Of a stretch of 54,536 nt of DNA, positions 12,340-51,982 are shown in pieces; positions within the stretch are counted from its first letter, which is position 1; every line of letters starts with the position of its first letter. Origin of the DNA: a virus (lineage: Duplodnaviria > Caudoviricetes); IMG/VR virus record IMGVR_UViG_3300048895_000171, positions 1 to 54,536 of that record; one strand, given 5' to 3'. Made by a program: the position numbers and the translations under genes. Under the pieces are notes generated by a model. It was not told the DNA's origin and searched no databases. It saw only the letters and a program-made list of their open reading frames with translations.

Positions 12340-12461
12340 CTGACATCCGCCATTTTTGTGGCTCCGGCATCTGGACGATGCCAACTGGGTTAGCAGTCCC
12401 TCCCAACTGCATTGCCTGCACGGCATCCAAAGTGCGTTCCGGTTCAAGTCCGTATTGTCGG
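12340..12461 (+). ncRNA. structured 5' leader of the capsid gene with a T-loop-like hairpin
   Basis: Hairpins GCCA/TGGC, GGCATC/GATGCC, GCAGT/ACTGC, GCAC/GTGC and CGG-TTCAAGT-CCG, closable by CTGACA/TGTCGG. Confidence 0.45.
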
Positions 12462-12491: not shown

Positions 12492-14066
12492 ATGGCATGT
12501 CCAACAGGTATAATCCAGGCCTGCGATTTCCCGCAGTTCCTGGTGGACCAGACGCCGAAGTTCGACGAACTCATCATTGAGGATATTCGTCCGACCGACG
12601 GCTGGCTTCTGAACGTCTCGACTGGCTCGACCCCGATGGGCACGCCGGTTGAAATCACCCAAGACCGGTTCCGTTCCGTCTTCCCCAACACCACGAAGGC
12701 GTGGCGCAAGGTGGTAGCGAATGGACCAGGTTGTAACGGCAATCCTTGTGACCCCCCGGAGCACCAGATCGGTTGGGGCGCGGACCGGCTCACCTACTTC
12801 CTGGAAGCCCAGGAATGGCAGACGCCGCTCCTGTGCTACGACCAGGACATGCACATCACCCATGCCGAGCAGCACATCTCCCAGATCATCTCCGAGATTC
12901 TGCGACCGGCCACGACCTACATCTCCAGCACGTTTCTCCGTAAACGCGCGCTGTTGTGGGCCAAGAAAAAGTGGGCCGCGAACGCCACGATGTCCGACTT
13001 CACCTTCCAGTGGACCCTCGGTGGCCCCAACGGCGACGAGGAAATCTACTTCGATTGCTCGGTTGCGCCGACCAACGTGTATCTCCTGGTTCCGCAGATG
13101 TTGCAGAACCAGTGGAGCCCGCTGATGCGTAATGGTTACGCCGGCAAGAACCCGTTCAAGGACACGGCTCCGTATGTGGAGCTGGTCACGGACATGGACA
13201 CCTGCTGGAGCCTCGACAAGCTGGGCGGTTCCCAGGGCGTCGGCGGCACCCCGAGTGTAAACGGCAACTGGCGCTTCACGGAATGGAGCTCGGCCAACGC
13301 CTACTGGCGCTATGGCTTCTCCGGCCAGATCGGTAACTTCATGGTGCGTGTGGATGAGTTGGGCCTCCGGTTCAACTACGTCACGGACCTGGGTGTCAGC
13401 GCCAATGGTGGCTCCGGCAACCGTTACCGCTACCAGATCGTCCTGCCTTGGGTGAATCAAATCACCAGCGGCGCGGGCGGCGCGGCGGGCCTCGGTTCGA
13501 CGGCCAACACGGCGTTCGACCTGGCGCAATACAGCATCAGCTTCATCTGGCACAAGAAGGCCATGGAGTTGCTCGTCCCCGACAGCGGAACCCTCAATCC
13601 GGAAATGCCCTTTGCTCACCGCGACTTCGCGGGCAAGTGGCAGTTCGTCATGGACAACCTGGGCGCTGACGTGAACGGCATTGCCATCAACAACAAGCGG
13701 CGCAACAAGGGTCAGTTCATCTCTGACTTCCGGTATTATGTCCGGCCGCTCCACACCGAATTCGCTCAGGCGATTTTCCATATGCGTGAACAGTTCTGCA
13801 TCCCGACCATCGGCGTCTGCAACCCGAATCCCGGATACCCGGCTCAGGTTTACAACAGTGCGCTCCCGACCTGCCCGCTGCCGGGCACGGGGACGACCTA
13901 CCCGGCTGGTTGGCCGACTAACAGTGGCCCGATTCCGATTGTGACCACGAACATGACCGTCCAGGGCGTTACCGTCCCGGTGGTTGAAACGCTGAACCCG
14001 GTGCCCGCAGTCAACCATGACTTCGCGCTGCCGCCGGCCACGCCGACCAACCCGCCTGACCAGTAA
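12492..14066 (+). CDS. probable major capsid protein
   Basis: 524 aa after the scaffold, own promoter and terminator, Pro/Thr-rich C-terminal extension. Confidence 0.7.
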   Translation: MACPTGIIQACDFPQFLVDQTPKFDELIIEDIRPTDGWLLNVSTGSTPMGTPVEITQDRFRSVFPNTTKAWRKVVANGPGCNGNPCDPPEHQIGWGADRLTYFLEAQEWQTPLLCYDQDMHITHAEQHISQIISEILRPATTYISSTFLRKRALLWAKKKWAANATMSDFTFQWTLGGPNGDEEIYFDCSVAPTNVYLLVPQMLQNQWSPLMRNGYAGKNPFKDTAPYVELVTDMDTCWSLDKLGGSQGVGGTPSVNGNWRFTEWSSANAYWRYGFSGQIGNFMVRVDELGLRFNYVTDLGVSANGGSGNRYRYQIVLPWVNQITSGAGGAAGLGSTANTAFDLAQYSISFIWHKKAMELLVPDSGTLNPEMPFAHRDFAGKWQFVMDNLGADVNGIAINNKRRNKGQFISDFRYYVRPLHTEFAQAIFHMREQFCIPTIGVCNPNPGYPAQVYNSALPTCPLPGTGTTYPAGWPTNSGPIPIVTTNMTVQGVTVPVVETLNPVPAVNHDFALPPATPTNPPDQ

Positions 14067-27268: not shown

Positions 27269-30200
27269 ATGGCAATCGTCAACGTAAAAGACTTCGGGTC
27301 CGTGAAGTTCCCGGACGACATGAGCCCGGACGACATCAAGTCGGCCCTGGACAAGAAATACGCCAAGCCCGCACCACTGCGCGGAGCTCTTGCAGGAGTT
27401 GAGGAGTTCGCCGGCTCCATCCCCAAAGGGCTCGCATCCATCTCCGAGGGTGCAACCCCGGTAACAGTTCCGGCCCCCATCTGGAACGGAGAGATTCCCA
27501 ATGGCTCACCCATGACCGAGGACAGTGGTGGTCGCGCGTCTGTGGTCCCGCCCCAGCTTGGACCCAGCGTCCGGCCCCGCACTGGTTCAGAGGTGGTGGC
27601 AGCCCTGAAGCAGAACAAGCTTTACCAGATCGGCGAGACCGCTGCCGCATCAGTGCCCTTGAGCGCGCAGCAGGAGGCCAGTAAAATCACCCAGGCCGGC
27701 AAGATGGTCGGTGGTTCCGCCGGCATGGCGCTGGGCCCCCTGGCCACCCCTGCGTTCGCCGTGTCATCGATGGGCGACACCGCCAACGACTTCGACCGCA
27801 TCAAGCAGGAGAACCCGAAGCTGAGCGAGGATGAGGCTGCTGACCAGGCGCTTCAGATGTCCGTCAACAAGGGTGTCATCACGGCTGCCACCTTCTCTGT
27901 CCTGCCGCCCGCCCTGCGCGGAGCCCTGGAGAAGCACCTGGTTGGCAAGCTGGGTAATCGCTGGGTGGCCGGACGACTGGCATCTGCCACCGAGGCAGGC
28001 ACTGTCATGGGTGCACAGACCGCCGGGCAGAACATTGTCGAAGGCAAGAAGCCGACCGAAGGACTGGGCGCATCCACTGGGGGCGGTGCCATCATGGGGT
28101 TGCTCCTGCCTTGGTTGAAAACTAGGGGTCAGGCTGACAGAGAATTTGTTAAGTCCGAGATGGTCAAGAGGGGGTATGACCCCAGCAAGACTTTGACTGA
28201 GCAGATGCTGAAGGACCCAAAGGTGGTCAAGTCAATCAAGGAAGACCCTGAACTTACTGACGATCAGAAGGAAAATCTTCTCAAAACCGGGACTAGCATT
28301 ACAAAGGGAGGAAAGAACATCGAGCAGCCCGTTCCAGAAGACGAGTCTGCTCCGGCACCAGCTCCGAAGTCCAAAGCAGTTCCATACAAACTGGAGTCCG
28401 ACGAGGGAGGTGGTTATTCCATCACCGCTCCAGATGGCTCCGCCATTTCAAGCCACGCATCATTCGCTGAAGCCAAGGAGGCGATGGACAAACTGAAGGT
28501 GTCTGGTGGCCGGACGGCAGGTAGGCCGGAGGACATCAAGCTGACCGAAGATGAGGCCAAGGCTCAAGGTCCAGAGGTTGTGAAATCCATCATGGCAAAG
28601 CATGGAGTTGACCGTGATACTGCGGTTGCCATTCAGTCTGCCAACCGGACACGTCTCGGAATCACTAAGGATGTTGCATCACCCCACTCCGAAACTGTGG
28701 GTGCCAGCATTGATGTGTTCCAGGTCGGAGACAGGGACCTGGCTGATTACTTCCAGAAGTCCAAGGGTGGAAGCCTGACCGGTGAAGCATGGCGCGTGGG
28801 TATGGCTGCCAAGACTGAGGCTGATGTTCAGGAGCTTCAGAATAAGCAGCAGATCATGCACCAGCGCGCACAGGAGGCGAAGGCAACCAAGAACATCCCG
28901 GCCATGATGACTTCGGCCATGAAGGGGCAGTTCTACCGCGAGGCGTATGAGGCCGCCACGGGCACTGGCAGCGCGGGAGAGGCGCTCCTGAAGAAAGACC
29001 CCAATTACAAGCCGCCGGTTCCTGCGAAGGCCGCCGAGGAGGTCAAGCTGGACCCCGAAGACCAGAAGCACATCGACGCCGAGCGCGGGACGGTGGACGT
29101 TCCTGTCGAGGTTGTTGATTCTGCTGACAAAGGGAATCCGTTTGCAAAGAACCTGGAGTCCAACATTGCCACCATTGACCGGGCGTCCGGCAAAATCCTC
29201 ATCAACAAGCAGGCGTTCTCGGACTGGCTCAAAGGCATACCGGAGAAAGACAGGGGCATGGCCGTTCGTTCCCTGCTTGGTGAGGAGCGCATCCACCTTG
29301 CGACTGACGACGCGGCGGCTGCCGCCTACTGGGACAACCTTACCGCCCAGGAGAAGGCCATCGTTCGACGCCGCTACGCCGGCAAGGGAAGCGTTCTGGC
29401 TGGCATGAACCGGACGCTGTGGGGCCACGAAGCCCTGCGGTTCCGTATGCAGCAGCTTGCGCGCATGACGCCGCGCGAGATTGCTGACGCCGTGGGCAAG
29501 GAGAAGTGGACTCTCAAGGCGCTCACCATCATCGAGACCGCCATACGTGGCATCCGTGAGAAGTTCCTGCGCACCGGTGCCAGCAAGGAATCCATCCGAA
29601 TCCTGGGAACGATTCAGGACCGGCTGAACATGGGCAAGGTGGTGGCCGCCGGCGGAAGTCCCAAGGCGATGAGTAAGGCCGCACAGAAACTGGCCTTCAA
29701 AAACGCCGACGAACTTGAGCAGGACGCTGTCATCTTCGAGCAGGCTGGAGACAAGGCCGGTGCCGAGGAGATGCGAGCCATGGCGAAGGATTTGCGCCAA
29801 CGCACGTTTGACCAGTCGTTCCAGTCCGAGAAGACTCCCGGTGCCCGCATCAAGAAGCGCGTGGAGTCCAAGGAGCAGGAGCACTTCATTCTGCCGGGTG
29901 CCAACACGATTAAGACCGCCGCCGGCAATGTGAAGGAGCCGTCGTTCAACCGGGAGAAGAACGAGTTTGAGTTCAAGGACACAGCCCCGGTGGCAGGCGA
30001 TGAACGCTCCACTGCCGAGAAGTCTGGTGCCCTGCCGCGCCTGACCAGCGCCCAGATTGATGAGCGCGCCAGCAAGAAGGTTGGTGACGCCGTCCAGGAA
30101 CGCATTGCTGCATCCGTCAAGGGTGAGCGCATGGCGCTGCCCACGTTCAAGCAATTTGCCGCAAGTTCGTCCGGTCAACAGGGTCGTCTGCTGGAAATCT

Positions 30201-33200
30201 GGCAGGGTGCGGTTGGCAAGCTGCTGGAGAACATGCCCGGTGAGGACATGCGACTGCTGGCGAAGGCTGGCATCCAGGGCAAGACCCAGGAAATCACCAC
30301 CGACAAACAGATTGAGCTGAAGTTCAAAGGTGCGAAGGACGCTGACGAGAAGATCAAGAACGCCAAGGAACGCCGTGACCGCTCGCTCTCCAAGGAGGCC
30401 AGCTCTGGCCGCTCAATCTGGGACGCACCGGTGCCGGACAAAGATTTTGGAATTGATACCGTCAAGCATTACACCGCGCTGGAGCGGGACCTTGAACAGA
30501 AGGTGGAGGCATTGTCAGAACGGGAATCAGAGGTGAAGGAGCTGGCTTCCGACCTAAAGGGTTCGACCGCCCTGATGGAGGACCGAACCAAGCAGGAGTC
30601 TGAACTGGCTGATGCCAGGACCGCCGTGTGGGACGCCCGCAAGGAGACGCAGGACGCGCGCCGCCGCATCGCTGAGCTCAAGCCGGAATATGATGGGGTC
30701 ATCCAGAAGCGCAAGCGCCGCTCCTGGATTCAGTCCGCTCTGTTCCGAAAGATGGTTCGACCTGCACTGGAGGAGAATCAGGCCACTCTCACACGCAAAG
30801 AAGTGGTGCCCGAGGAAGTCCGCTACGGCGGTGGTGACAAGTTCTCCGCCTACGAGGACACGACCAGGCTGCCCGACTCCAAGGTGGCAGACGCATTGAC
30901 CGACAACGCGCGCCGCTCAAAGGATGATGCTGCCACGATCACCCGCCGGCTGGCTGTGCTGCTGAACCCGCGCACTGGCACCGTGCATTTGGTGTCCGCT
31001 TACGACCATCCACATGGCCGGGAGGTGCCGCACGACGTCCGCGTCCTGGACCCGATCTCCCCGATGCGGGAGCACCTGCCTTTGAGCCGAGTTATGAGCC
31101 GATACAAGGTCCTGCGCTCCGTCCTGCTCGATGAGCCGGTCAGAAAGTTCCGTCAGGACTTCAAGAGCATCGCCGATTACGAGAGCAAGTTCGGCAAGGA
31201 GGTCAACCGCACTGAGCAACAGCACGCGGAGTATCAGCCCGGCTCCCTGTCAGAGGAGGAGTTCATGGCGGAGAGTGGCGGCCGAATCAGCGGTGGTAGT
31301 GGCGGCTCGTTCCAAGGACCGCACCGTGACACCGTGTTCGAGGGCGAGGCTGGCGCGGCGGAGAAGTCGGAGACCACACCCCTGACGGACGCGGAAGGCA
31401 AGGCCCTGCTCGACCATGTGTTGAGCTACGGCGAGCCGCTCTCAGTTGATGATGTTGACCAGGCGTTGAGTAAGCTTGCAGAGGTGAAGAACCGGCAGGC
31501 CATGTCCGCCATCGCCAAGCTGGGCCGCGCGCTCCAGGAAAAGTATCCCGACTCGGATGGCAACCAGCTCAAGAAGATGCTCGCCCAGTTCATCTTTGAG
31601 AACTACCGGGCGAACCGGAAGATTGGACGCAGCGCACCTGCTGACATAAAGCGGATTAACAATCCGATGGCGGTGAACCGCCAGCGCCTGCGCGAGGAGC
31701 GGGACAAAGTTATTGGTGAGCTGGCTACCGCCAAGAACCGGGCTGCTGTCGTATTCAAGCGCAGTGACACAGAGAAGGCGATGTCAGCCAGCCTGGACGC
31801 TGCCGACACGGTTGCCAACAACTTTGCCGAGAACGCACAATGGTCGGTCAGGATGCCGTCTTCTGACGATGCTCGGAATGTGGTTGGAATGAAGAAGAAC
31901 TTTCACGGGAAGAAGGAAATCTTGGAAGGGGCTCCTGCCATGCTGGCGGCTGGCTCGGTCAAGGCCCGCTACCACTACAACGCCGAAGCGATGGCGGAGG
32001 CTGAGCGTCTGATGAAGGATGAGGCTTACATCAAAAAGGAGAGTTACCTGGCCCACCTGAAGAAAGACCTCGCCATCAAGACCAACATGGGCAAGGACAC
32101 TCCCGCAATGCGCGAGGAGGTCAAGTCGATGCAGAACGAGTTTGATACGGCGATTCAAAAGAAGCTTCTGGAGACCGGGTTCCTCAATCAGGCTGATGCC
32201 ACCTACTACCACGACCCGGAGGCCAAGTCCAAGATCGACGAATACATGTTCCGGGTTCGGCAGGGCATGGAGGCGGCTAACCGCATGATTAAGGACGGAA
32301 ACTACTGGGACAAATACCGGGGCCGCCGTTGGAAGCGTGGAAACGAGAAGCTGCTGGAGACGCTGGAGTTCGCCAAGGCCCAGTGGGACAACCCGGAGTT
32401 GCAAGACACCGCCATGTGGATGCGCAAGGAGCTGGACCGCCAGTTCGAGCTGGAGCGCAACAACGGTTACAGCGTCCAATACGACGACAACTACATGCCG
32501 GGCCGGTATGATGGTGAGCTGTTCTCCCAGCACGGCGTCCTGTTCGCCGGCATCCGGGTTCTGGGTCGCCAGTTCCGTTCAGCTAAGGTGTTTCCGACGA
32601 TCTACCACGCTGCCGAGAAGGGGCCGTATGTTCCCGCATCGCTCGATGGCTCAGCAATGGTGGGCTCCCGCGTCCGCCAGGGAATGCGGTCAGTGATGAA
32701 GAACACCTGGTGGAATGGCCTAAAGCACATCAATGATGATGTGACCGGGCAGCCAATCGCCAAGGCTGGAAAGGATTTCAAAGGCAAGATTACCGCTCCC
32801 GGAACGGATTACACCCACGAGTTCAAGACTCCGGGGGGCGACAAGATTTACATTCTGGACGGGTATGAGAACCTGGTTCACCAGCTCACCGACCCTGATG
32901 CAATCACCAAGAATCTGATTACCAGAAGCGCATTGGAAGCTGGGCAGTATCTGAAGCACACCGTTCTGCTCGGCGACGTTTTCCATCTTGGCCGCGTGAC
33001 CTACTACGCGGCTTCAATCCTTGGACGGAAGACCGCCTACTTGCCTGGCTGGGCGGCAACATCTATCCGCGAGGAGGACATTCCGCGTGCCGTGAAAGCT
33101 GGCACCATCAGCCAGAAGACGGCCAACTTTCTGACCGAGAAGGTGGCGTTCCGCATTGGCTCAAAGGCCAGCATGATCTCTCGGGCGCGTCTGTCGCACC

Positions 33201-34453
33201 TGTATCAGCGCAGCGGACTGAACGTGGGCAAGATTCAGGACGCCATCTACAAGGACTTGGTGAGGCACGTTCCTGGATTTGGACAATACAACCGGTTCCT
33301 GTTCGACCGCTACACGCGCGGAATGATGATGACTTCAGCTCTGCGGGAGTTCGACCGGTTGAGCAAGTTGGACCCGCAGAAGGATTCGCGCGACATCGTT
33401 CAGGAGTCGGCCCGCGACCTGAACTTCTACTTCGGCAACATTGGGCGTCAGGGCTGGATTAAATCCCAGACCTTCCAAAGCCTTGCCCGCATGACTTTCC
33501 TGGCCCCGCAGTGGCTGGAGGGATTGATTAGGAAAGAGGCTTCTATCGTTCGTGGAATTCATAGCCCGGTCCGGGCGCTCACTGGCAGGGACACCATGTT
33601 CCGTGGCATCGCCCGAGGGATGCTAGCTATGCTGGCGCTTACCCAGGTGTCCAACATGATTACGAAGGGTCATCCGACGTGGCAGAACAAGGAGAAGGAC
33701 CATAAGTGGGATACGGAAGTGGCTGACAACGTGTGGCTGTCTCCGCTGGCGGTGTTCAATGAGCTGACCGGAGACATGATTCGGCTGCTGGAAACGAAGC
33801 CGAAGGCGTGGGATGCGATTCAGCAGATCGGAGAGAACAAGCTTGGGTTCTACGGTCGCGCCGCCATGGTCCTGGCAACGAGCAAGGCTCCCGGCGGACA
33901 GTATCAGACGACCACCGGCGGTGTGCTGGGACAGGCAGCCAAACAGCTCATACCGACTCCAATCTCATTTGGTGTTTTGGGCCAGGCGGCTGGAAACAAG
34001 ATTGCTCCCGGACTGGTGCCGCCGGTTCCGAAGCAGATGCTGGCTCAGAAACTTTTCTCCACAACGGGATTGAAGACGCACGCCGGCATGGACGCCGAAC
34101 AATACACGAAGCTGAGCGCCGAGAAGTTCCGCAAGGCGAACGGCATCACGACGCCATCAATTCAATACACTGACGAGCCGAGCTATTCACAGCTCCGGTA
34201 TCTGGTGAAGAACGGCGACCTGTCCGGTGCGACGAAGATGCTGGCGCATTTGAAGCAGACGAAGACCGACAAGGACATCATTGACGCCATGCGGGTTTGG
34301 GTGAGGAAGCCGTTCACCGGCAGCTTGCACAGCGAACGGCTCTGGTTGGGCGGGATGAGCGATGATGAGCGTGCGACCTACGACGATGCGGTTAATGAGA
34401 AGATGAAGGAATATCAGGCGTTTGTGGACTGGTATTTCCACACGCCTCAGTGA
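27269..34453 (+). CDS. very large internal virion/ejection-type protein (2394 aa)
   Basis: Last and largest structural-arm gene; N-terminal VKFPDDMSPDDIKSAL, Gly/Ala hydrophobic region, helical. Confidence 0.6.
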   Translation: MAIVNVKDFGSVKFPDDMSPDDIKSALDKKYAKPAPLRGALAGVEEFAGSIPKGLASISEGATPVTVPAPIWNGEIPNGSPMTEDSGGRASVVPPQLGPSVRPRTGSEVVAALKQNKLYQIGETAAASVPLSAQQEASKITQAGKMVGGSAGMALGPLATPAFAVSSMGDTANDFDRIKQENPKLSEDEAADQALQMSVNKGVITAATFSVLPPALRGALEKHLVGKLGNRWVAGRLASATEAGTVMGAQTAGQNIVEGKKPTEGLGASTGGGAIMGLLLPWLKTRGQADREFVKSEMVKRGYDPSKTLTEQMLKDPKVVKSIKEDPELTDDQKENLLKTGTSITKGGKNIEQPVPEDESAPAPAPKSKAVPYKLESDEGGGYSITAPDGSAISSHASFAEAKEAMDKLKVSGGRTAGRPEDIKLTEDEAKAQGPEVVKSIMAKHGVDRDTAVAIQSANRTRLGITKDVASPHSETVGASIDVFQVGDRDLADYFQKSKGGSLTGEAWRVGMAAKTEADVQELQNKQQIMHQRAQEAKATKNIPAMMTSAMKGQFYREAYEAATGTGSAGEALLKKDPNYKPPVPAKAAEEVKLDPEDQKHIDAERGTVDVPVEVVDSADKGNPFAKNLESNIATIDRASGKILINKQAFSDWLKGIPEKDRGMAVRSLLGEERIHLATDDAAAAAYWDNLTAQEKAIVRRRYAGKGSVLAGMNRTLWGHEALRFRMQQLARMTPREIADAVGKEKWTLKALTIIETAIRGIREKFLRTGASKESIRILGTIQDRLNMGKVVAAGGSPKAMSKAAQKLAFKNADELEQDAVIFEQAGDKAGAEEMRAMAKDLRQRTFDQSFQSEKTPGARIKKRVESKEQEHFILPGANTIKTAAGNVKEPSFNREKNEFEFKDTAPVAGDERSTAEKSGALPRLTSAQIDERASKKVGDAVQERIAASVKGERMALPTFKQFAASSSGQQGRLLEIWQGAVGKLLENMPGEDMRLLAKAGIQGKTQEITTDKQIELKFKGAKDADEKIKNAKERRDRSLSKEASSGRSIWDAPVPDKDFGIDTVKHYTALERDLEQKVEALSERESEVKELASDLKGSTALMEDRTKQESELADARTAVWDARKETQDARRRIAELKPEYDGVIQKRKRRSWIQSALFRKMVRPALEENQATLTRKEVVPEEVRYGGGDKFSAYEDTTRLPDSKVADALTDNARRSKDDAATITRRLAVLLNPRTGTVHLVSAYDHPHGREVPHDVRVLDPISPMREHLPLSRVMSRYKVLRSVLLDEPVRKFRQDFKSIADYESKFGKEVNRTEQQHAEYQPGSLSEEEFMAESGGRISGGSGGSFQGPHRDTVFEGEAGAAEKSETTPLTDAEGKALLDHVLSYGEPLSVDDVDQALSKLAEVKNRQAMSAIAKLGRALQEKYPDSDGNQLKKMLAQFIFENYRANRKIGRSAPADIKRINNPMAVNRQRLREERDKVIGELATAKNRAAVVFKRSDTEKAMSASLDAADTVANNFAENAQWSVRMPSSDDARNVVGMKKNFHGKKEILEGAPAMLAAGSVKARYHYNAEAMAEAERLMKDEAYIKKESYLAHLKKDLAIKTNMGKDTPAMREEVKSMQNEFDTAIQKKLLETGFLNQADATYYHDPEAKSKIDEYMFRVRQGMEAANRMIKDGNYWDKYRGRRWKRGNEKLLETLEFAKAQWDNPELQDTAMWMRKELDRQFELERNNGYSVQYDDNYMPGRYDGELFSQHGVLFAGIRVLGRQFRSAKVFPTIYHAAEKGPYVPASLDGSAMVGSRVRQGMRSVMKNTWWNGLKHINDDVTGQPIAKAGKDFKGKITAPGTDYTHEFKTPGGDKIYILDGYENLVHQLTDPDAITKNLITRSALEAGQYLKHTVLLGDVFHLGRVTYYAASILGRKTAYLPGWAATSIREEDIPRAVKAGTISQKTANFLTEKVAFRIGSKASMISRARLSHLYQRSGLNVGKIQDAIYKDLVRHVPGFGQYNRFLFDRYTRGMMMTSALREFDRLSKLDPQKDSRDIVQESARDLNFYFGNIGRQGWIKSQTFQSLARMTFLAPQWLEGLIRKEASIVRGIHSPVRALTGRDTMFRGIARGMLAMLALTQVSNMITKGHPTWQNKEKDHKWDTEVADNVWLSPLAVFNELTGDMIRLLETKPKAWDAIQQIGENKLGFYGRAAMVLATSKAPGGQYQTTTGGVLGQAAKQLIPTPISFGVLGQAAGNKIAPGLVPPVPKQMLAQKLFSTTGLKTHAGMDAEQYTKLSAEKFRKANGITTPSIQYTDEPSYSQLRYLVKNGDLSGATKMLAHLKQTKTDKDIIDAMRVWVRKPFTGSLHSERLWLGGMSDDERATYDDAVNEKMKEYQAFVDWYFHTPQ

Positions 34454-45961: not shown

Positions 45962-46627
45962 TTATTTCTTGTTTGGTTTCATGAACTCATACGAGTTCAG
46001 GTTCTGGCGGATGCGGTGCATCATCTCCTTGTGCACCGACCGCTCCAGTTTTGGTTTCTCCATCGCCTGAAGAACGTAGAGATGCTGCATCAGCGCCGCC
46101 GCCATGAAGTTGGCGGACACCAGTTGCACGTTCTTTGCTTGGGCCTCTCCGGTGCAGCCGATGGCCTCCGAGCGGGGGTCATCGCTGTTGTCCGTGAGGA
46201 TTTCAGGATAATAAACGCGCGGGTCGAACTGCGACCCCTTCCACATCGGGTCGTAGTAATACGCCTCCGCGCTTGTTGTTTCGTTGGCTCCGAAGATGGC
46301 CTTGCAGCCATACTGGTCGCACGATTCCAGCACCGCCTTTCGAGCCGGATTGTTGTCCACGCCGACCATAAACCAGTCGCTCGCGTCGAATGTCCACCTG
46401 CCATGTGAGAAGAATTCCTCAAAGGCATTGCAATCGTATTTAACAGCCAATGCGCCCGCCTTGTTCAATCCAATCTGGTCAAACTCGAACAATTGGCGGT
46501 TCAAGTTTTTCTTCTCCAGCTTGTCGCCATCAATGATGGTGACTCGATCTGAATTTGTCAGCAGGCACATGGCCGGAGTCAGCCAGGAGCCGACTCCGCC
46601 TGCACCGATGATGTAGATGTTCTTCAT
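45962..46627 (-). CDS. ThiF/E1-family adenylyltransferase
   Basis: IIGAGGVGS, IIDGD, NLNRQ, GLNKA, GVDN..AR, candidate catalytic Cys in GCTGEAQ..QL..AN..AA. Confidence 0.9.
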   Translation of the reverse strand: MKNIYIIGAGGVGSWLTPAMCLLTNSDRVTIIDGDKLEKKNLNRQLFEFDQIGLNKAGALAVKYDCNAFEEFFSHGRWTFDASDWFMVGVDNNPARKAVLESCDQYGCKAIFGANETTSAEAYYYDPMWKGSQFDPRVYYPEILTDNSDDPRSEAIGCTGEAQAKNVQLVSANFMAAALMQHLYVLQAMEKPKLERSVHKEMMHRIRQNLNSYEFMKPNKK

Positions 46628-47783: not shown

Positions 47784-48020
47784 TTAGGCGAGGACTTCAG
47801 TCGCCTTGCTGTTTGCGCGGGTCTCCAGCACGATTTCCATGCCGTCAGCCACCTGCGCGGAGCTGTCCTGCTCGACGCCACCCACCAACGCCTTCACGTT
47901 GTCACCATAACCTAGGATGATCTTCGTGGAGGGGTTGTTGATGATGCTGCCAACGGTGGCCGTTGCGCCGACCGTGACTTCCGTGGTGTCGATACCGTAA
48001 CGAACGATTACTTTTTTCAT
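47784..48020 (-). CDS. ubiquitin-like (beta-grasp) protein
   Basis: 78 aa; beta-beta-alpha-beta pattern, VADGMEIVLE as in Ubl strand 5, ends ANSKA-TEVLA; next to E2/E1/JAB. Confidence 0.75.
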   Translation of the reverse strand: MKKVIVRYGIDTTEVTVGATATVGSIINNPSTKIILGYGDNVKALVGGVEQDSSAQVADGMEIVLETRANSKATEVLA

Positions 48021-49682: not shown

Positions 49683-50402
49683 TCAGCGGTTGGTTGAACC
49701 ATCGCTTGCTGAAGGCGGTGGAGATTGTTTCCTATGTGGCAGGTTGTCGGCGAGGGTGAGGGCGGCATGGCCATTTAAGTTATCATTACACGCATTGCAA
49801 TTTTGATGTTCTTGATTATGCCAGCTAAGCCAGTTGTCTCTTTTCAGCATTGCATCCAATGCCTTCACCAACTCATTCACCGCGCTACGAAGCTGGGTGA
49901 GTTCGGATTCTAGTTTGATAACTTCATTTTTAGTATCTTGATGCAACTCTTTTTCTTCTTCAAAAGCCATTTGATACGAATGAGAACCAAGATATTCAAA
50001 GGGAGCGAAAGCCTGCCCAGAAGTGGCAGGACTTGATTTCTCCTGAACAGTCTCACGATTAGTTCTATCTTGGTTCTCAAATTTAAGTTTCTCAAACGCC
50101 TCATCCCTCTCCTTCAACGCTTGGGTGATCTCTTGTTCCATTTTGTAGATGTCGCAGATTTCTGCGTGCCCATCTGGGATTTCTCTACCGCACACCTTGC
50201 AGGCACCCCATTCATCAATCCAGTCTCCGTCGCGCTTGGGCTGCTCCACTTTCAACTGGAGATTGGCCGTGTGTTCCTCTATTGCCTTCTTAATTATTCT
50301 GCTCCATGAAGCAATCTTTTCAGGCTTCTTACGCTCAGGAAACTCGCCCTCAGCGTCGAAGATGTCACCAGCTAATTTCTCGGCAAGTTCGTCGATATTC
50401 AT
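49683..50402 (-). CDS. hypothetical mosaic protein
   Basis: Start ATG 50402; CKVC..H..C motif, coiled coil, AT-rich middle. Confidence 0.6.
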   Translation of the reverse strand: MNIDELAEKLAGDIFDAEGEFPERKKPEKIASWSRIIKKAIEEHTANLQLKVEQPKRDGDWIDEWGACKVCGREIPDGHAEICDIYKMEQEITQALKERDEAFEKLKFENQDRTNRETVQEKSSPATSGQAFAPFEYLGSHSYQMAFEEEKELHQDTKNEVIKLESELTQLRSAVNELVKALDAMLKRDNWLSWHNQEHQNCNACNDNLNGHAALTLADNLPHRKQSPPPSASDGSTNR

Positions 50403-50653
50403 TTGGCTGGCCCTCCAGTCAGGTAGCCGACGGTGATCTTTCTGTCGTTGGCGATTCGCCGCACTCGCTGGTGCAGCTTGATGAGTCCGCAGGCTGGACA
50501 GGAAAGCCCGTTGCAGCCGCATTGCTTGGATGCGCGGGCCGCTTGCAGCAGAATGAAGCCCACGTTGTTGGGAAATTGCTCCTCGATTTCTCGCATGAGC
50601 TTGGCCACCTGAAGACGAACCTCGTTCTCAGGGAATAATGCAGTTTTTGCCAT
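50399..50653 (-). CDS. hypothetical protein with Cys cluster
   Basis: MAKTALFPE..CGCNGLSCPAC. Confidence 0.6.
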   Translation of the reverse strand: MAKTALFPENEVRLQVAKLMREIEEQFPNNVGFILLQAARASKQCGCNGLSCPACGLIKLHQRVRRIANDRKITVGYLTGGPAK

Positions 50654-50668
50654 GATTTTATTTGTGAT

Positions 50669-50856
50669 TGGTGAGCGCGGCAGGATTTGAACCTTGCGTG
50701 TTTCTGTCTCGTTTCCCCGTGTTCGCCCAACCTGAACGATAATTGATTGGGCGTGGCACGGAGACTGACACCACCGCACCTACAAAGCAGGTGTTCTCGG
50801 ATATGTTCAGTCTGGTTGCCACTGTCAGGGTGCGTATGCCACTCCGCCACGCGCTC
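50669..50856 (-). ncRNA. tRNA-like RNA 1 (188 nt) with large insert in place of the anticodon arm
   Basis: GAGCGCG/CGCGCTC acceptor, A-CCA end, D arm GCGGAGTGGCATACGC, T arm GCAAGG-TTCAAAT-CCTGC. Confidence 0.75.
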
Positions 50857-50864
50857 AAATTGTT

Positions 50865-51152
50865 TTAGTTTGACCGAGCCTTGCCTTCGATGTTGGCAAT
50901 CGCTTCTCCGGCGGTGATTGGCGCAGTGATTGAGTCCTTCACTTTGAACGGGCCTTTTTCAATCCGGCACGCCCGGAACCGGGCACCAGACTTGAATTGC
51001 TCGTTGATTACTGTGGCGGCCGCGCGGGCGTAGAACTCCTCCTTGTATCGCAGCGGGCCATCGTCGTCACCCATCCATGATTTGTCCTCCGTGTCGAACA
51101 CGCCGAACTTGCCACCGGGTGAGGTGGCTTTGTTTACTGGGATTGGTTTCAT
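50865..51152 (-). CDS. hypothetical protein
   Basis: 95-aa ORF between the two tRNA-like RNAs. Confidence 0.65.
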   Translation of the reverse strand: MKPIPVNKATSPGGKFGVFDTEDKSWMGDDDGPLRYKEEFYARAAATVINEQFKSGARFRACRIEKGPFKVKDSITAPITAGEAIANIEGKARSN

Positions 51153-51155
51153 AAT

Positions 51156-51380
51156 TTATTCTTTCACTTTCGGTCCGTAAGGTTTGATGATTAGGGCGAT
51201 GAGGGACCACTCGATTGCCTTCTCGTTATGCTCCATTGCCATCATAATGGCGTTGACTGCGACATAGGCGAAGCAGACCAGTTGGAACCAGCCCATTGCC
51301 CAGGTGAGCCAACTGATGACGAACTGCTTGTGCTTCTCACGGTCGCGCCAGAGGATATGGCGTTTGTTGAATGATTTCAT
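51156..51380 (-). CDS. small membrane protein
   Basis: MKSFNKRH.. with hydrophobic helices; start ATG 51380. Confidence 0.55.
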   Translation of the reverse strand: MKSFNKRHILWRDREKHKQFVISWLTWAMGWFQLVCFAYVAVNAIMMAMEHNEKAIEWSLIALIIKPYGPKVKE

Positions 51381-51390
51381 TGGCAAGAGA

Positions 51391-51536
51391 TGGGCGCGGC
51401 AGGATTCGAACCTGCAATGAAGTCTGAGGCAACCACGCTGCTGATGATGCGACTCATCCGGCAGCCACGTCGGCATTCGCGCCCCGACAGGCACATGTCC
51501 TCATCTGCGTGCGTTATCCAGTTCCGCCACGCGCCC
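51391..51536 (-). ncRNA. tRNA-like RNA 2 (146 nt) with large insert in place of the anticodon arm
   Basis: GGGCGCG/CGCGCCC acceptor, discriminator A, D arm GCGGAACTGGATAACGC, perfect T arm GCAGG-TTCGAAT-CCTGC. Confidence 0.75.
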
Positions 51537-51544
51537 AAATTTGT

Positions 51545-51982
51545 TTAGTTCCGCGAAACGTCCTCCGGCGGCTCGACGGGCATTTCAGCCGTGAACGTCA
51601 TTGTTTTATCACCGGACTCCTTTCCTTCGAGCTGGCGAATCTTGATGAGCATGGACAGCGACACGATTGTCGATGCCAGTTCGGGGATTTTCCTGACCTT
51701 CATCACGCTAATTATTGAGGCGAGAAGGCCTTTTAGCGCAACCACCGGCAGTCTGCGCATGGTTTCGGGACTTATCAAGACCCATTCCTCCGCGATGGAT
51801 GGAATGAACTCCAATGGCGCTCCGCAGTAGTGGCAGATGGTCACGTTCCCGCTTTTAATGAACTTCTCGGTGGTTTTGATGATCTGCTCGTCGGTCATGC
51901 TCGGCATGATGTCGAACTCATTGTCACAGAACGGACACTCCACGTTCCGCAGTTTTTTGACGTCAATCATAAGTGCCTCCAC
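51545..51982 (-). CDS. zinc-finger hypothetical protein
   Basis: CPFC..CHYC. Confidence 0.65.
   Translation of the reverse strand: MEALMIDVKKLRNVECPFCDNEFDIMPSMTDEQIIKTTEKFIKSGNVTICHYCGAPLEFIPSIAEEWVLISPETMRRLPVVALKGLLASIISVMKVRKIPELASTIVSLSMLIKIRQLEGKESGDKTMTFTAEMPVEPPEDVSRN

What the first reader, a model, noticed from the sequence alone, without database searches (positions are those of the whole stretch)
50669..51536. Two paralogous tRNA-scaffold RNAs with the anticodon arm replaced by unrelated structured inserts
Seen: both have a perfect 7-bp acceptor stem, UG at 8-9, a Leu-type D arm, a T loop and discriminator A. They covary at 2:71 (A-U vs G-C) and at the 15:48 Levitt pair (G-C vs A-U), suggesting selection on the tRNA fold. 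Neither has a canonical anticodon arm; the segments between D and T arms (~130 and ~95 nt) are unrelated to each other. Established: bacterial LeuRS reads A73 and the elbow rather than the anticodon, and RNase P reads the acceptor/T arms. Inference: a class of phage ncRNA using a tRNA chassis as processing signal, stable carrier for cargo RNA, or decoy for host tRNA nucleases or synthetases.
Basis: partly seen in the sequence, partly recalled or inferred. Interest (0 to 1): 0.85.

Follow-up and report, generated by a model that had tools for sequence, protein, structure and literature searches.

The report
Phage tRNA-shaped RNAs carrying variable cargo
Two small genes in this phage genome have the top half of a leucine tRNA but a large, unrelated structured insert instead of the anticodon arm, and they belong to a large, apparently undescribed family of such RNAs in phages, whose function is still unknown.

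Summary
On the minus strand, E1 (50856..50669, 188 nt, CCA encoded) and E2 (51536..51391, 146 nt) each have a 7-bp acceptor stem, U8-G9, a Leu-type D arm, a T arm and A73, but 132 and 93 nt of unrelated sequence where the anticodon and variable arms belong. ARAGORN and Rfam's gathering thresholds find nothing.

They are not chance or decay. A loose D-arm/T-arm pattern in viral contigs gave 178 matches. In 132 of them the unconstrained acceptor strands pair 7/7, against 0 of 178 at each of five shifted registers. I collected 193 unique long forms (89-234 nt) with 108 different acceptor stems. Only 8 of 122 hold a canonical anticodon hairpin, and the inserts fall into 105 blastn clusters of 122.

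A covariance model built without the window scores E2 at 53 bits and E1 at 30.9 bits. Flanks show tRNA-style processing signals: U at -1 in 69%, C74 in 69%. Closed copies in cellular genomes are mostly in Bacteroidota.

Best reading: a tRNA-Leu-derived chassis, processed and stabilised like a tRNA, carrying a variable effector domain. Expression, charging and function are untested. It is a new variant of a known kind (T4 species 1 RNA, tmRNA, skipping-rope-type tRNA mimics).

The parts
50669..50856 (-). E1: whole tRNA-like RNA gene, 188 nt including the encoded CCA (50669-50671) and A73 (50672)
   Evidence: Family model R1 scores it 30.9 bits, E 6.4e-6.
50850..50856 (-). E1 acceptor stem, 5' strand (GAGCGCG); pairs 7/7 with 50673-50679
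   Evidence: Read.
50832..50847 (-). E1 D arm (3-bp stem; loop with A14, G15 and GG), Leu-type
50699..50830 (-). E1 cargo, 132 nt. A 5-bp closing helix (50826-50830 with 50714-50718) sits in the anticodon-stem position and encloses a three-way junction: a long irregular hairpin (50753-50822) and a second hairpin (50725-50752). An A-rich single-stranded stretch follows (50699-50713; C48 at 50698).
   Evidence: Free fold (z -3.3, 2 of 200 shuffles as stable) and core-constrained fold. No homologue of this cargo was found.
50680..50697 (-). E1 T arm: 5-bp stem with one bulged A (50694), loop UUCAAAU
   Evidence: the model alignment shows the inserted base.
51391..51536 (-). E2: whole tRNA-like RNA gene, 146 nt ending at A73 (51391); no CCA encoded (followed by TCT)
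   Evidence: Family model R1 scores it 53.0 bits, E 1.2e-11.
51530..51536 (-). E2 acceptor stem, 5' strand (GGGCGCG); pairs 7/7 with 51392-51398
   Evidence: Read.
51511..51527 (-). E2 D arm (3-bp stem; loop with A14, A15 and GG), Leu-type
51417..51509 (-). E2 cargo, 93 nt, predicted as several hairpins. It holds an internal second copy of GGGCGCG (51478-51484).
   Evidence: (whole-element z only -0.97). No homologue of this cargo was found.
51399..51415 (-). E2 T arm (GCAGG / UUCGAAU / CCUGC), preceded by U48 (51416)
50857..50870 (-). Conserved leader before E1 (AACTAAAACAATTT). It holds the stop codon of the upstream ORF (50865..51152), which lies 8 nt before the element. T at -1.
   Evidence: Family-wide, U at -1 occurs in 69%.
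51537..51550 (-). Conserved leader before E2 (AACTAAACAAATTT). It holds the stop codon of the upstream ORF (51545..51982). T at -1.
50399..50653 (-). Downstream ORF (84 aa from the ATG at 50653), starting 15 nt after E1's CCA; no family match
51156..51380 (-). Downstream ORF (74 aa from the ATG at 51380), starting 10 nt after E2's A73; no family match

Best explanation
E1 and E2 are two paralogous members of a large, apparently undescribed family of phage-encoded RNAs derived from class II tRNA-Leu.

[quoted passage not shown] The anticodon and variable arms are replaced by a 40-190-nt domain ('cargo') that differs between copies.

Inferred mechanism:
1. The elements are transcribed inside the leftward operon of small early genes.
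2. They are cut out like tRNAs: RNase P at the 5' end, then 3' trimming and CCA addition.
3. The L-shaped upper half makes them stable.
4. The variable lower half is the working part. It probably binds a host or phage factor and evolves or is exchanged quickly.

Shown: the fold signature, family membership, the absence of a decoding arm, the tRNA-like flanks, and the diversity and partial conservation of cargo.

Inferred: transcription, processing, stability and any effector role.
For: Family and structure:
- 132 of 178 viral pattern matches close with 7/7 acceptor pairs, against 0 of 178 at each of five shifted registers.
- 193 unique long forms carry 108 distinct acceptor strands, with all four Watson-Crick pair types at positions 1-6. 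The 15:48 pair is A-U in 180 and G-C in 10.
- On a 39-sequence alignment, 9 of 15 core pairs change on both sides. The covariation score is 0.60, against 0.07-0.12 when partners are slid. The rows had been chosen for pairing, so, 98 is the independent test.
- Model R1, built without the window, hits E2 at 53 bits and E1 at 30.9 bits and nothing else in the genome.

Not a decoding tRNA:
- ARAGORN with introns allowed gives scattered anticodons.
- Only 8 of 122 contain any 5-7-5 hairpin with U33 and R37, and none of those carries a Leu anticodon.

A distinct class:
- Among 115 viral matches to a Leu D-arm word, 51 are ordinary tRNA-Leu of 79-85 nt with Leu anticodons.
- 36 are long forms of 91-221 nt with a different T arm (RCAGG-UUCRAAU-CCUGY).
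- Nothing lies between 85 and 91 nt.

Processing signals:
- U at -1 in 69% (background T 28%), A/T-rich at -2 to -5, C74 in 69%.
- Some copies sit directly beside ordinary tRNA genes on the same strand.
- Neighbouring genes are co-oriented.

Cargo matters:
- Cargo folds are shifted towards stability: median z -0.73, and 29 of 192 below -2.
- The same cargo class recurs in scaffolds with different acceptor stems. For L206/L209, cargo is 91% identical and the acceptor 50%.
- Compensatory changes occur in cargo helices.
Against: - There is no expression or processing data for any member. No RNA run was available.
- The cargos of E1 and E2 themselves have no detectable relative, so selection on them is not shown.
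- E2's fold is not more stable than shuffles (z -0.97), and 49 of 192 cargos have z above 0.
- No cargo-wide motif was found. No recurrent partner protein was found.
- E1 has a bulged T stem and scores lower, so it could be a weakened copy.
- The compensatory counts come from RNAalifold, which only proposes pairs that both sequences can form. They lean towards structure.
Confidence: 0.55

Rival explanations
1. Leucine-accepting mimic. The RNAs are charged by host LeuRS, which does not need the anticodon. They then act as a sink or decoy for LeuRS, EF-Tu or tRNA-directed defence nucleases, or as an aminoacyl donor.
For: - E1 and E2 keep A73, U8-A14, G18G19 and a 15:48 pair.
- The D arm is identical to that of host and viral tRNA-Leu.
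- For bacterial LeuRS, A73 and the D/T tertiary core are the critical elements, and the anticodon arm is dispensable for aminoacylation (PMC2377443, abstract and passages read).
- The family model scores ordinary tRNA-Leu genes about as high as long forms.
Against: - A73 is kept in only 138 of 193 long forms, against every ordinary viral tRNA-Leu printed (46 distinct sequences).
- Some 20 of the 35 long forms without GG at D-loop positions 15-24 carry an ATGTAAA-type D loop that truly lacks G18G19 (others of the 35 have a hairpin inserted in the D loop, so GG may simply lie further on). Those bases are critical for charging (PMC2377443).
- No aminoacyl-tRNA-dependent enzyme recurs nearby.
- A stoichiometric decoy against the abundant cellular tRNAs is hard to picture.
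Confidence: 0.15
2. Pure punctuation. The tRNA-like fold is only a cleavage signal that splits the polycistronic transcript and frees the short, Shine-Dalgarno-less leader of the next gene. The insert is a tolerated spacer with no function of its own.
For: - Packing in the window is tight: 8 nt from the upstream stop, and 10-15 nt to the next ATG.
- 71 of 193 members have an ATG-led ORF starting 10-30 nt downstream, and 42 of 193 have a stop 0-15 nt upstream.
- U at -1 and C74 are enriched.
- Cargo sequence is hypervariable.
Against: - RNase P needs only the acceptor/T minihelix (general knowledge). Yet the Leu-type D arm and the 15:48 pair are conserved.
- A neutral spacer of 40-190 nt should shrink in a phage genome. 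Instead, cargo classes are kept across lineages whose acceptor stems have changed, with compensatory changes.
- About half of the members are not tightly flanked by genes.
Confidence: 0.17
3. A DNA-level cassette. [quoted passage not shown] The RNA fold is a relic.
For: - The same cargo occurs in different acceptor contexts.
- Paralogues in one contig share an acceptor stem in 7 of 13 multi-copy loci.
- RecT and a PD-(D/E)XK nuclease are present in the window and in several loci.
Against: - Base-pair covariation in the acceptor and T stems, including the G-C/A-U switch at 15:48, is selection on an RNA fold, not on DNA homology.
- The -1 and 74 preferences are RNA-processing features.
- Recombination may explain how cargo spreads, but not why the fold is kept.
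Confidence: 0.06
4. Decayed tRNA-Leu pseudogenes, or tRNA-Leu genes with an intron that is removed to give a working tRNA.
For: - The scaffold clearly descends from tRNA-Leu.
- Rfam's tRNA model gives weak full-span hits on some members, 29-43 bits.
Against: - No consistent anticodon after any excision, and no anticodon hairpin in 114 of 122.
- The inserts (about 40-190 nt by my reckoning from the element lengths) are below the roughly 200 nt that I recall as the smallest natural group I intron. No intron or ribozyme family was hit.
- Bacteria lack the archaeal and eukaryal splicing endonuclease (general knowledge).
- Hundreds of copies with intact, covarying stems are not decay.
Confidence: 0.03

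Closest known systems
Phage T4 species 1 RNA (rnaC) and species 2 RNA (rnaD)
   Same: - Small stable phage RNAs of 139 and 119 nt, encoded in line with tRNA genes.
- rnaC ends in a canonical T arm (CCGGG-UUCGAAU-CCCGG) followed by a strand that can pair with its 5' end. It is about twice the length of a tRNA.
- Their function is still unknown (PMC9697503, passage read).
   Different: - rnaC has no Leu-type D arm, and its acceptor-like helix has two mismatches (my reading).
- No sequence relation was shown. I did not run model R1 on T4.
tLRNAs: skipping-rope (RF02924), DUF2693-FD (RF02926) and salivarius-1 RNAs
   Same: [quoted passage not shown] A DUF2693-FD RNA lies about 620 nt from a family member in L187.
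   Different: - None of these Rfam models hits the window or the family members in the 35 loci scanned.
- The present family keeps a true cloverleaf core with a tRNA-Leu D arm and the normal tRNA strand topology.
- Its lower half is far larger and more variable.
tmRNA
   Same: tRNA-like acceptor and T domain with open 5' and 3' ends, with the lower half replaced by a large insert.
   Different: - ARAGORN finds no tmRNA.
- 3:70 is G-C, not the G-U that I recall as the alanine identity mark.
- A full D stem is present.
- No tag reading frame was sought or seen, and no SmpB-like partner was seen nearby.
Class II tRNA-Leu of bacteria and phages
   Same: The D arm word is identical (GTGGCGGAATTGGTAGACGC in many members). 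U8, the 15:48 pair and mostly A73 are shared. Model R1 scores true tRNA-Leu genes at 45-56 bits.
   Different: - No anticodon arm.
- The T arm is of another type: UUCRAAU, against UUCRAGU in the ordinary viral tRNA-Leu.
- Length is 89-234 nt.
- A73 is not universal.
Bacterial Y RNA-like YrlA
   Same: A tRNA-like module joined to a second functional module. It also occurs in phages (PMC4201824; search listing only).
   Different: As I recall it, the ends of YrlA lie in the Ro-binding stem and the acceptor-like helix is closed, so it is a permuted topology. No Rfam hit here.
Engineered 'tRNA scaffold' for recombinant RNA expression
   Same: An RNA of interest is placed where the anticodon arm would be, so that the cell processes and stabilises it as a tRNA (PMC3753655; search listing only; the principle is recalled).
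   Different: It is man-made. The resemblance is a lead to mechanism, not evidence.

Membership tests
Long tRNA-Leu-like phage RNAs (this family; model R1) | Significant full-length match to a covariance model built from other members | tested here: met
   E2 scores 53.0 bits (E 1.2e-11) and E1 30.9 bits (E 6.4e-6); the next best hit in the window is 12.6 bits. The model also scores ordinary tRNA-Leu genes, so length and the missing anticodon arm must be added as criteria.
Long tRNA-Leu-like phage RNAs (this family; model R1) | 7-bp acceptor stem, U8, GCG/CGC D stem, 15:48 pair, and a 5-bp T stem with a UUCRAAU loop joined directly to the acceptor strand | tested here: met
   E1's T stem has one bulged A.
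Long tRNA-Leu-like phage RNAs (this family; model R1) | More than about 40 nt between D and T arms, with no canonical anticodon hairpin | tested here: met
   132 nt in E1 and 93 nt in E2. E1 and E2 are not among the 8 of 122 with a 5-7-5 hairpin bearing U33 and R37.
Long tRNA-Leu-like phage RNAs (this family; model R1) | tRNA-like flanks (U at -1; C at 74) | tested here: met
   T at -1 in both. Position 74 is C in E1 (CCA) but T in E2. Family frequencies are 69% and 69%.
tRNA (RF00005) / functional tRNA-Leu | Detection by ARAGORN or by Rfam at the gathering score | tested here: not met
   0 tRNAs and 0 Rfam matches.
tRNA (RF00005) / functional tRNA-Leu | Anticodon stem-loop with U33, a Leu anticodon and R37 | tested here: not met
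Intron-bearing tRNA | Excising one segment restores a cloverleaf with an anticodon that is consistent across relatives; or a group I or other self-splicing fold is present | tested here: not met
   ARAGORN -i finds no gene in E1 and calls E2 Val(gac). Anticodons are scattered across the family. No intron or ribozyme family was hit at relaxed thresholds.
tmRNA | tmRNA call with a tag peptide; G3-U70 | tested here: not met
   The ARAGORN tmRNA search found none. 3:70 is G-C in both elements. The G3-U70 rule itself is recalled, not taken from a call.
Skipping-rope / DUF2693-FD / salivarius-1 tRNA mimics | Match to the Rfam covariance model | tested here: not met
   No hit in the window at gathering threshold or at E up to 10. 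The one DUF2693-FD hit, in L187, is a separate locus.
LeuRS substrate | A73 plus the U8-A14, G18-U55 and G19-C56 core (PMC2377443) | tested here: inconclusive
   All these bases are present in E1 and E2, but across the family A73 is at 72% and GG is missing in a sub-group. Actual charging cannot be tested with these tools.
RNase P substrate | Acceptor and T coaxial helix of 12 bp, G+1, U-1 | tested here: met
   The sequence features are present. Cleavage itself cannot be tested here.

The most novel reading that the evidence does not exclude
Phages, chiefly of Bacteroidota and their relatives, carry arrays of a modular RNA device. It consists of a constant tRNA-Leu upper half that recruits the host's tRNA maturation (and perhaps charging) machinery, and an exchangeable, fast-evolving lower half that acts as an effector, for example a decoy or aptamer against host defence or RNA-metabolism proteins. 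The near-universal D-arm and T-arm words would double as recombination handles, so that cargo modules move between phages while each phage keeps its own acceptor stem. This would be a natural counterpart of the engineered tRNA scaffold and a new layer of phage-host conflict carried by RNA.
Probability: 0.25. Interest if true: 0.9.

Novelty: new variant of a known kind. Interest (0 to 1): 0.75.

Why it matters
If these RNAs are made and processed as the sequence signals suggest, phages have a widespread, unannotated class of stable RNAs that standard tRNA finders and Rfam miss. In one arbitrary sample of viral matches to a tRNA-Leu D-arm word, 36 of the 87 that closed into a tRNA-like fold were of this kind.

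The family could explain the half-century-old puzzle of T4's species 1 RNA by analogy. It would give the newly proposed 'upper-half tRNA mimic' class a very large natural branch with built-in variation. It also offers a ready test bed, because members exist in cultured Lactiplantibacillus and Leuconostoc phages.

For annotation, these elements should be neither called tRNA-Leu pseudogenes nor read through as ORFs.

Tried and rejected
- blastn of the 1-kb region against GenBank phages: no match.
- Relatives of the 95-aa ORF between the elements in viral contigs: none.
- PHROGs and Pfam on 29 window proteins: mostly blank. Only a helicase, RecT, a PD-(D/E)XK nuclease, ThiF and weak Q-like zinc-finger hits, so there is no partner clue.
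- Antisense search of both cargos against the phage's own genome: nothing beyond chance. The best was 17 nt with 1 mismatch, E 0.08, in the same sense.
- Cargo-wide motif searches: only U48, T/A at position 26, and D-arm words from members with D-loop insertions.
- Recurrent neighbour proteins by blastp clustering: the largest cluster spans 6 acceptor types. Examples are ordinary replication, recombination and packaging genes.
- Sequencing runs: no RNA holder listed. Contigs of four soil or root DNA runs were identical to the window where they covered it, so there was no natural variation to test cargo helices.
- Metagenome scan with the window's own leader plus acceptor word: 109 of 122 matches do not close into a tRNA-like fold, and the 9 long forms found have other cargos.
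- blastn of two family members against GenBank phages. L212 gave no record with both halves; four hits were fetched, of which two (Rhizobium, Pelagibacter) were ordinary tRNA-Leu beside integrases and two (Lactiplantibacillus, Leuconostoc) were unannotated family variants. L539 gave no match.
- Bacteroidota -7 promoter word TAnnTTTG: not enriched in the window, 11 against 15.9 expected. The sigma-70 promoter and terminator scan around the elements found nothing on the minus strand. The host phylum of this particular phage therefore stays unproven.
- Model R1 cannot separate long forms from ordinary tRNA-Leu by score, so I did not use it for a phylum-wide census.
- Literature: seven full-text searches found no description of this family. 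Supplementary files were not consulted.
- Larkin et al. 2002 on minimal tRNA-Leu is not held. I saw only its title, in a reference list.
Full report
**What is at the coordinates**

The window is a complete 54,536-bp virus record. Few of its proteins are recognisable: a helicase, RecT, a PD-(D/E)XK nuclease and a ThiF-like protein.

Both elements lie on the minus strand, co-oriented with a run of small ORFs.
- E1 runs 50856..50669. It is 188 nt and ends ...A73-CCA.
- E2 runs 51536..51391. It is 146 nt, ends at A73, and has no CCA.

Each has the following features:
- A perfect 7-bp acceptor stem. The two differ by A2-U71 in E1 and G2-C71 in E2.
- U8 and G9, a GCG/CGC D stem, and a D loop with A14 and GG.
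- A pair at 15:48: G-C in E1 and A-U in E2.
- A T arm with loop UUCAAAU in E1 and UUCGAAU in E2.

E1's T stem needs one bulged A, which is a small correction to the finding.

Between the D and T arms lie 132 nt in E1 and 93 nt in E2. These stretches do not align with each other. With the cloverleaf core imposed, the folds are within about 1.1-1.2 kcal/mol of the unconstrained minimum. E1's insert then forms a 5-bp helix exactly where the anticodon stem would start. That helix closes a three-way junction. E1 as a whole folds better than shuffles (z -3.3), while E2 does not (z -0.97).

**Standard detectors**

ARAGORN finds no tRNA or tmRNA. Rfam finds nothing at its gathering scores. At E up to 10 it reports only a sub-threshold tRNA-Sec match. 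That match uses an internal second copy of GGGCGCG in E2 (24.6 bits against a cut-off of 47).

**Is it more than chance?**

I searched viral contigs with a deliberately loose pattern. It fixed 8 bases of the D arm and 14 bases of the T arm, 95-155 nt apart, and left the acceptor strands free.
- Of 178 matches, 132 have 7/7 complementary acceptor strands at the exact tRNA register.
- At each of five shifted registers the count is 0 of 178.
- The same pattern in one genome per prokaryotic species closes in only 27 of 118 matches (24 at 7/7 and 3 at 6/7). The rest are adjacent ordinary tRNAs.

A general detector applied to all loci fetched gave 193 unique long forms of 89-234 nt. They show:
- 108 different acceptor 5' strands.
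- All four Watson-Crick pair types at acceptor positions 1-6.
- T-stem pairs that switch between G-C and A-U.
- A 15:48 pair that is A-U in 180 and G-C in 10.

On a MAFFT alignment of 39 members, the named core structure has 9 of 15 pairs with changes on both sides. Its covariation score is 0.60, against 0.07-0.12 for slid partners. Those rows had been picked for pairing, so the independent evidence is.

A covariance model built from those 39 sequences, with neither window element among them, finds E2 at 53.0 bits and E1 at 30.9 bits. It finds nothing else in the genome above 12.6 bits.

**They are not decoding tRNAs or intron-bearing tRNAs**

- With introns allowed, ARAGORN assigns anticodons for many different amino acids across the family. 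It finds nothing in E1 and calls E2 Val.
- A 5-7-5 hairpin with U33 and R37 exists anywhere in the insert of only 8 of 122 members. None of those has a Leu anticodon.
- Relaxed Rfam searches of the window and of 35 loci find no intron, ribozyme or other family in the inserts. They give only weak full-span matches to the tRNA model on some members.

**A class apart from tRNA-Leu**

- 51 are ordinary tRNA-Leu of 79-85 nt, with Leu anticodons and UUCRAGU T loops. Every one printed (46 distinct sequences) has A73.
- 36 are long forms of 91-221 nt, with no anticodon loop and a different T arm (RCAGG-UUCRAAU-CCUGY).
- 28 do not close, and most of these look like att-site half-tRNAs.
- No lengths fall between 85 and 91 nt.

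The scaffold clearly descends from tRNA-Leu. Host tRNA-Leu genes share the D-arm word and score as high as long forms with the family model.

**Context and flanks**

Members sit in operons on the same strand as their neighbours, sometimes directly beside ordinary tRNA genes. The neighbours are ordinary replication, recombination and packaging genes, and no single protein family travels with the RNA.

Flanks look like tRNA flanks. T occurs at -1 in 69% (background 28%), positions -2 to -5 are A/T-rich, and C occurs at 74 in 69%.

In the window each element begins 8 nt after the stop codon of the upstream ORF. That stop lies inside a leader of about 14 nt shared by both copies. Each element ends 10-15 nt before the next ATG. 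Family-wide, 71 of 193 have an ATG-led ORF 10-30 nt downstream.

Thirteen loci hold two or three copies. In 7 of them the copies share the same or nearly the same acceptor stem but carry different inserts, as in the window.

**The inserts**

By blastn, 122 inserts fall into 105 clusters. No insert-wide motif emerges. About 15 members also carry a hairpin inserted in the D loop.

Insert folds are moderately more stable than dinucleotide shuffles. The median z is -0.73, 29 of 192 are below -2, and 49 of 192 are above 0.

Where the same insert class is found twice, it can sit in scaffolds whose acceptor stems differ.
- L213/L240 and L204/L215 show two insert classes in each of two scaffold types.
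- For L206/L209, insert identity is 91% and acceptor identity 50%.

Closely related copies show compensatory changes in insert helices. One search counts 12 two-sided and 13 one-sided kept changes, but that method can only show kept pairs.

The inserts of E1 and E2 themselves have no relative in anything I fetched. They have no significant complementarity to the phage's own genome.

**Distribution**

Of the 27 closed copies in cellular genomes:
- 11 are in Bacteroidota.
- One each is in Rhodothermota, Ignavibacteriota, Spirochaetota, Thermodesulfobacteriota, Pseudomonadota, Cyanobacteriota, a CPR bacterium and an unplaced bacterium.
- 8 are DPANN or other archaeal genes with G73, which look like ordinary intron-bearing archaeal tRNAs and are a different matter.

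The non-closing hits come mainly from Actinomycetota, Pseudomonadota and Cyanobacteriota.

A variant with a UGCAAAU loop occurs, unannotated, in two cultured phages of lactic acid bacteria.

The window's own DNA is held by soil and root metagenome runs. Its host is not established. Sub-threshold DUF5977 and DUF6242 matches on one ORF and the rarity of Shine-Dalgarno-like motifs (14 of 93 candidate ORFs) are only hints, and the Bacteroidota promoter word is not enriched.

**How it most likely works**

Shown:
- A conserved, covarying tRNA upper half.
- Loss of the decoding half.
- tRNA-like flanks.
- A variable lower half that is conserved in places.

Inferred:
- The RNA is cut out of the operon transcript by RNase P and the 3' maturation enzymes, and it receives CCA.
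- It is stable because it looks like a tRNA.
- The lower half is the specific, working part.

Leucylation is possible. Bacterial LeuRS relies on A73 and the D/T core and does not need the anticodon arm for charging (PMC2377443, abstract and passages). However, A73 is kept in only 72% of long forms and some lack G18G19. Charging is therefore unlikely to be the common denominator.

A pure 'punctuation' role would not need the Leu-type D arm or a large, partly conserved insert.

**Comparison with what is known**

- T4's species 1 RNA (rnaC, 139 nt) is the closest classical case. It lies in the tRNA cluster and ends in a canonical T arm plus an acceptor-like strand. Its function is still unknown (PMC9697503). 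It lacks the Leu D arm.
- A preprint of October 2026 defines bacterial 'tLRNAs' (skipping-rope, DUF2693-FD, salivarius-1) as RNAs that keep the tRNA upper half. Their Rfam models do not hit this family, although one DUF2693-FD RNA lies next to a member.
- tmRNA and YrlA share the idea but fail the membership tests.
- The engineered tRNA scaffold works on the same principle.

Seven full-text searches found no description of this family. Supplementary files could not be consulted.

**Verdict**

The class-level interpretation is supported, and the function remains open. This is a new, very large and modular variant of the known theme of tRNA mimics. It is worth experimental follow-up in the cultured phages that carry it.

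Noticed in passing
window 12340-12461 (+): A possible third, degenerate tRNA-like fold in the 5' UTR of the gene that starts at 12492. It has a 6-bp closing helix, a D-like hairpin and a short T-like hairpin with loop UUCAAGU. It is not significant (z -1.5) and model R1 does not hit it.
   Followed up: partly
window 45962-46627 (-) and 47784-48020 (-): A ThiF/E1-like protein (Pfam PF00899, 6.9e-15) lies near a 78-aa ORF that might be a ubiquitin-like beta-grasp protein. This could be a conjugation-type module in a phage.
   Followed up: no
window 27269-34453 (+): A 2394-aa ORF has no Pfam match. Most large ORFs of this genome have no PHROG or Pfam match either, so the phage is very poorly charted.
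   Followed up: no
window 51478-51484 (-): E2 holds an internal second copy of its 5' acceptor strand (GGGCGCG). It could pair with the 3' strand instead, giving an alternative fold of about 93 nt. This explains the weak tRNA-Sec-like Rfam match (24.6 bits).
   Followed up: partly
window 50857-50870 and 51537-51550 (-): Both elements are preceded by the same leader of about 14 nt, which contains the stop codon of the upstream ORF. Both upstream ORFs end in ...N-stop. The duplicated unit therefore extends beyond the RNA.
   Followed up: partly
L187 791-839 (-): A DUF2693-FD RNA (RF02926, 76.5 bits), a recently described tRNA mimic, lies about 620 nt from a member of the present family. That is two kinds of tRNA mimic in one phage contig.
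   Followed up: no
L120 7915-8098 (-), L132, L170, L119: Some inserts contain a second T-arm-like hairpin (GGTTCGAATCC or GGTTCGATTCC). In L120 and L132 the insert also contains what looks like a nested D arm, that is, a tRNA-like piece inside the tRNA-like chassis.
   Followed up: no
L006, L015, L022, L030, L048, L133, L155, L119, L147, L019, L074, L157, L145, L366: These members carry an extra GC-rich hairpin inserted in the D loop, between GGCGGAA and TGGTAGACGC. This is a second expansion site in the chassis.
   Followed up: no
L213/L240, L204/L215, L206/L209; L043, L174, L265, L348, L521, L112: The same insert class occurs in scaffolds with different acceptor stems, while paralogues in one contig often share an acceptor stem (7 of 13 multi-copy loci). 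This pattern suggests cargo exchange or concerted evolution of the chassis.
   Followed up: partly
L177, L185, L191, L194, L197, L201 and others: 28 of 115 viral matches to the Leu D-arm word do not close into a tRNA-like fold. Most (about 20) are 5' halves of a tRNA-Leu that stop in the anticodon loop, probably attachment-site remnants at prophage ends.
   Followed up: no
L423, L445, L467, L476, L499, L502, L522, L534: These are archaeal (mostly DPANN) genes with G73 and inserts of about 50-70 nt that matched the same pattern. They are probably ordinary intron-bearing archaeal tRNAs and not part of this family.
   Followed up: no
L413 ~1195-1300 and L414 ~1196-1310: Lactiplantibacillus phage H1-Guo and Leuconostoc phage phiLM33_01 carry unannotated variants of the family with a UGCAAAU T loop. 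In H1-Guo the element lies just downstream of a DUF1492 (ArpU-type) regulator gene.
   Followed up: partly
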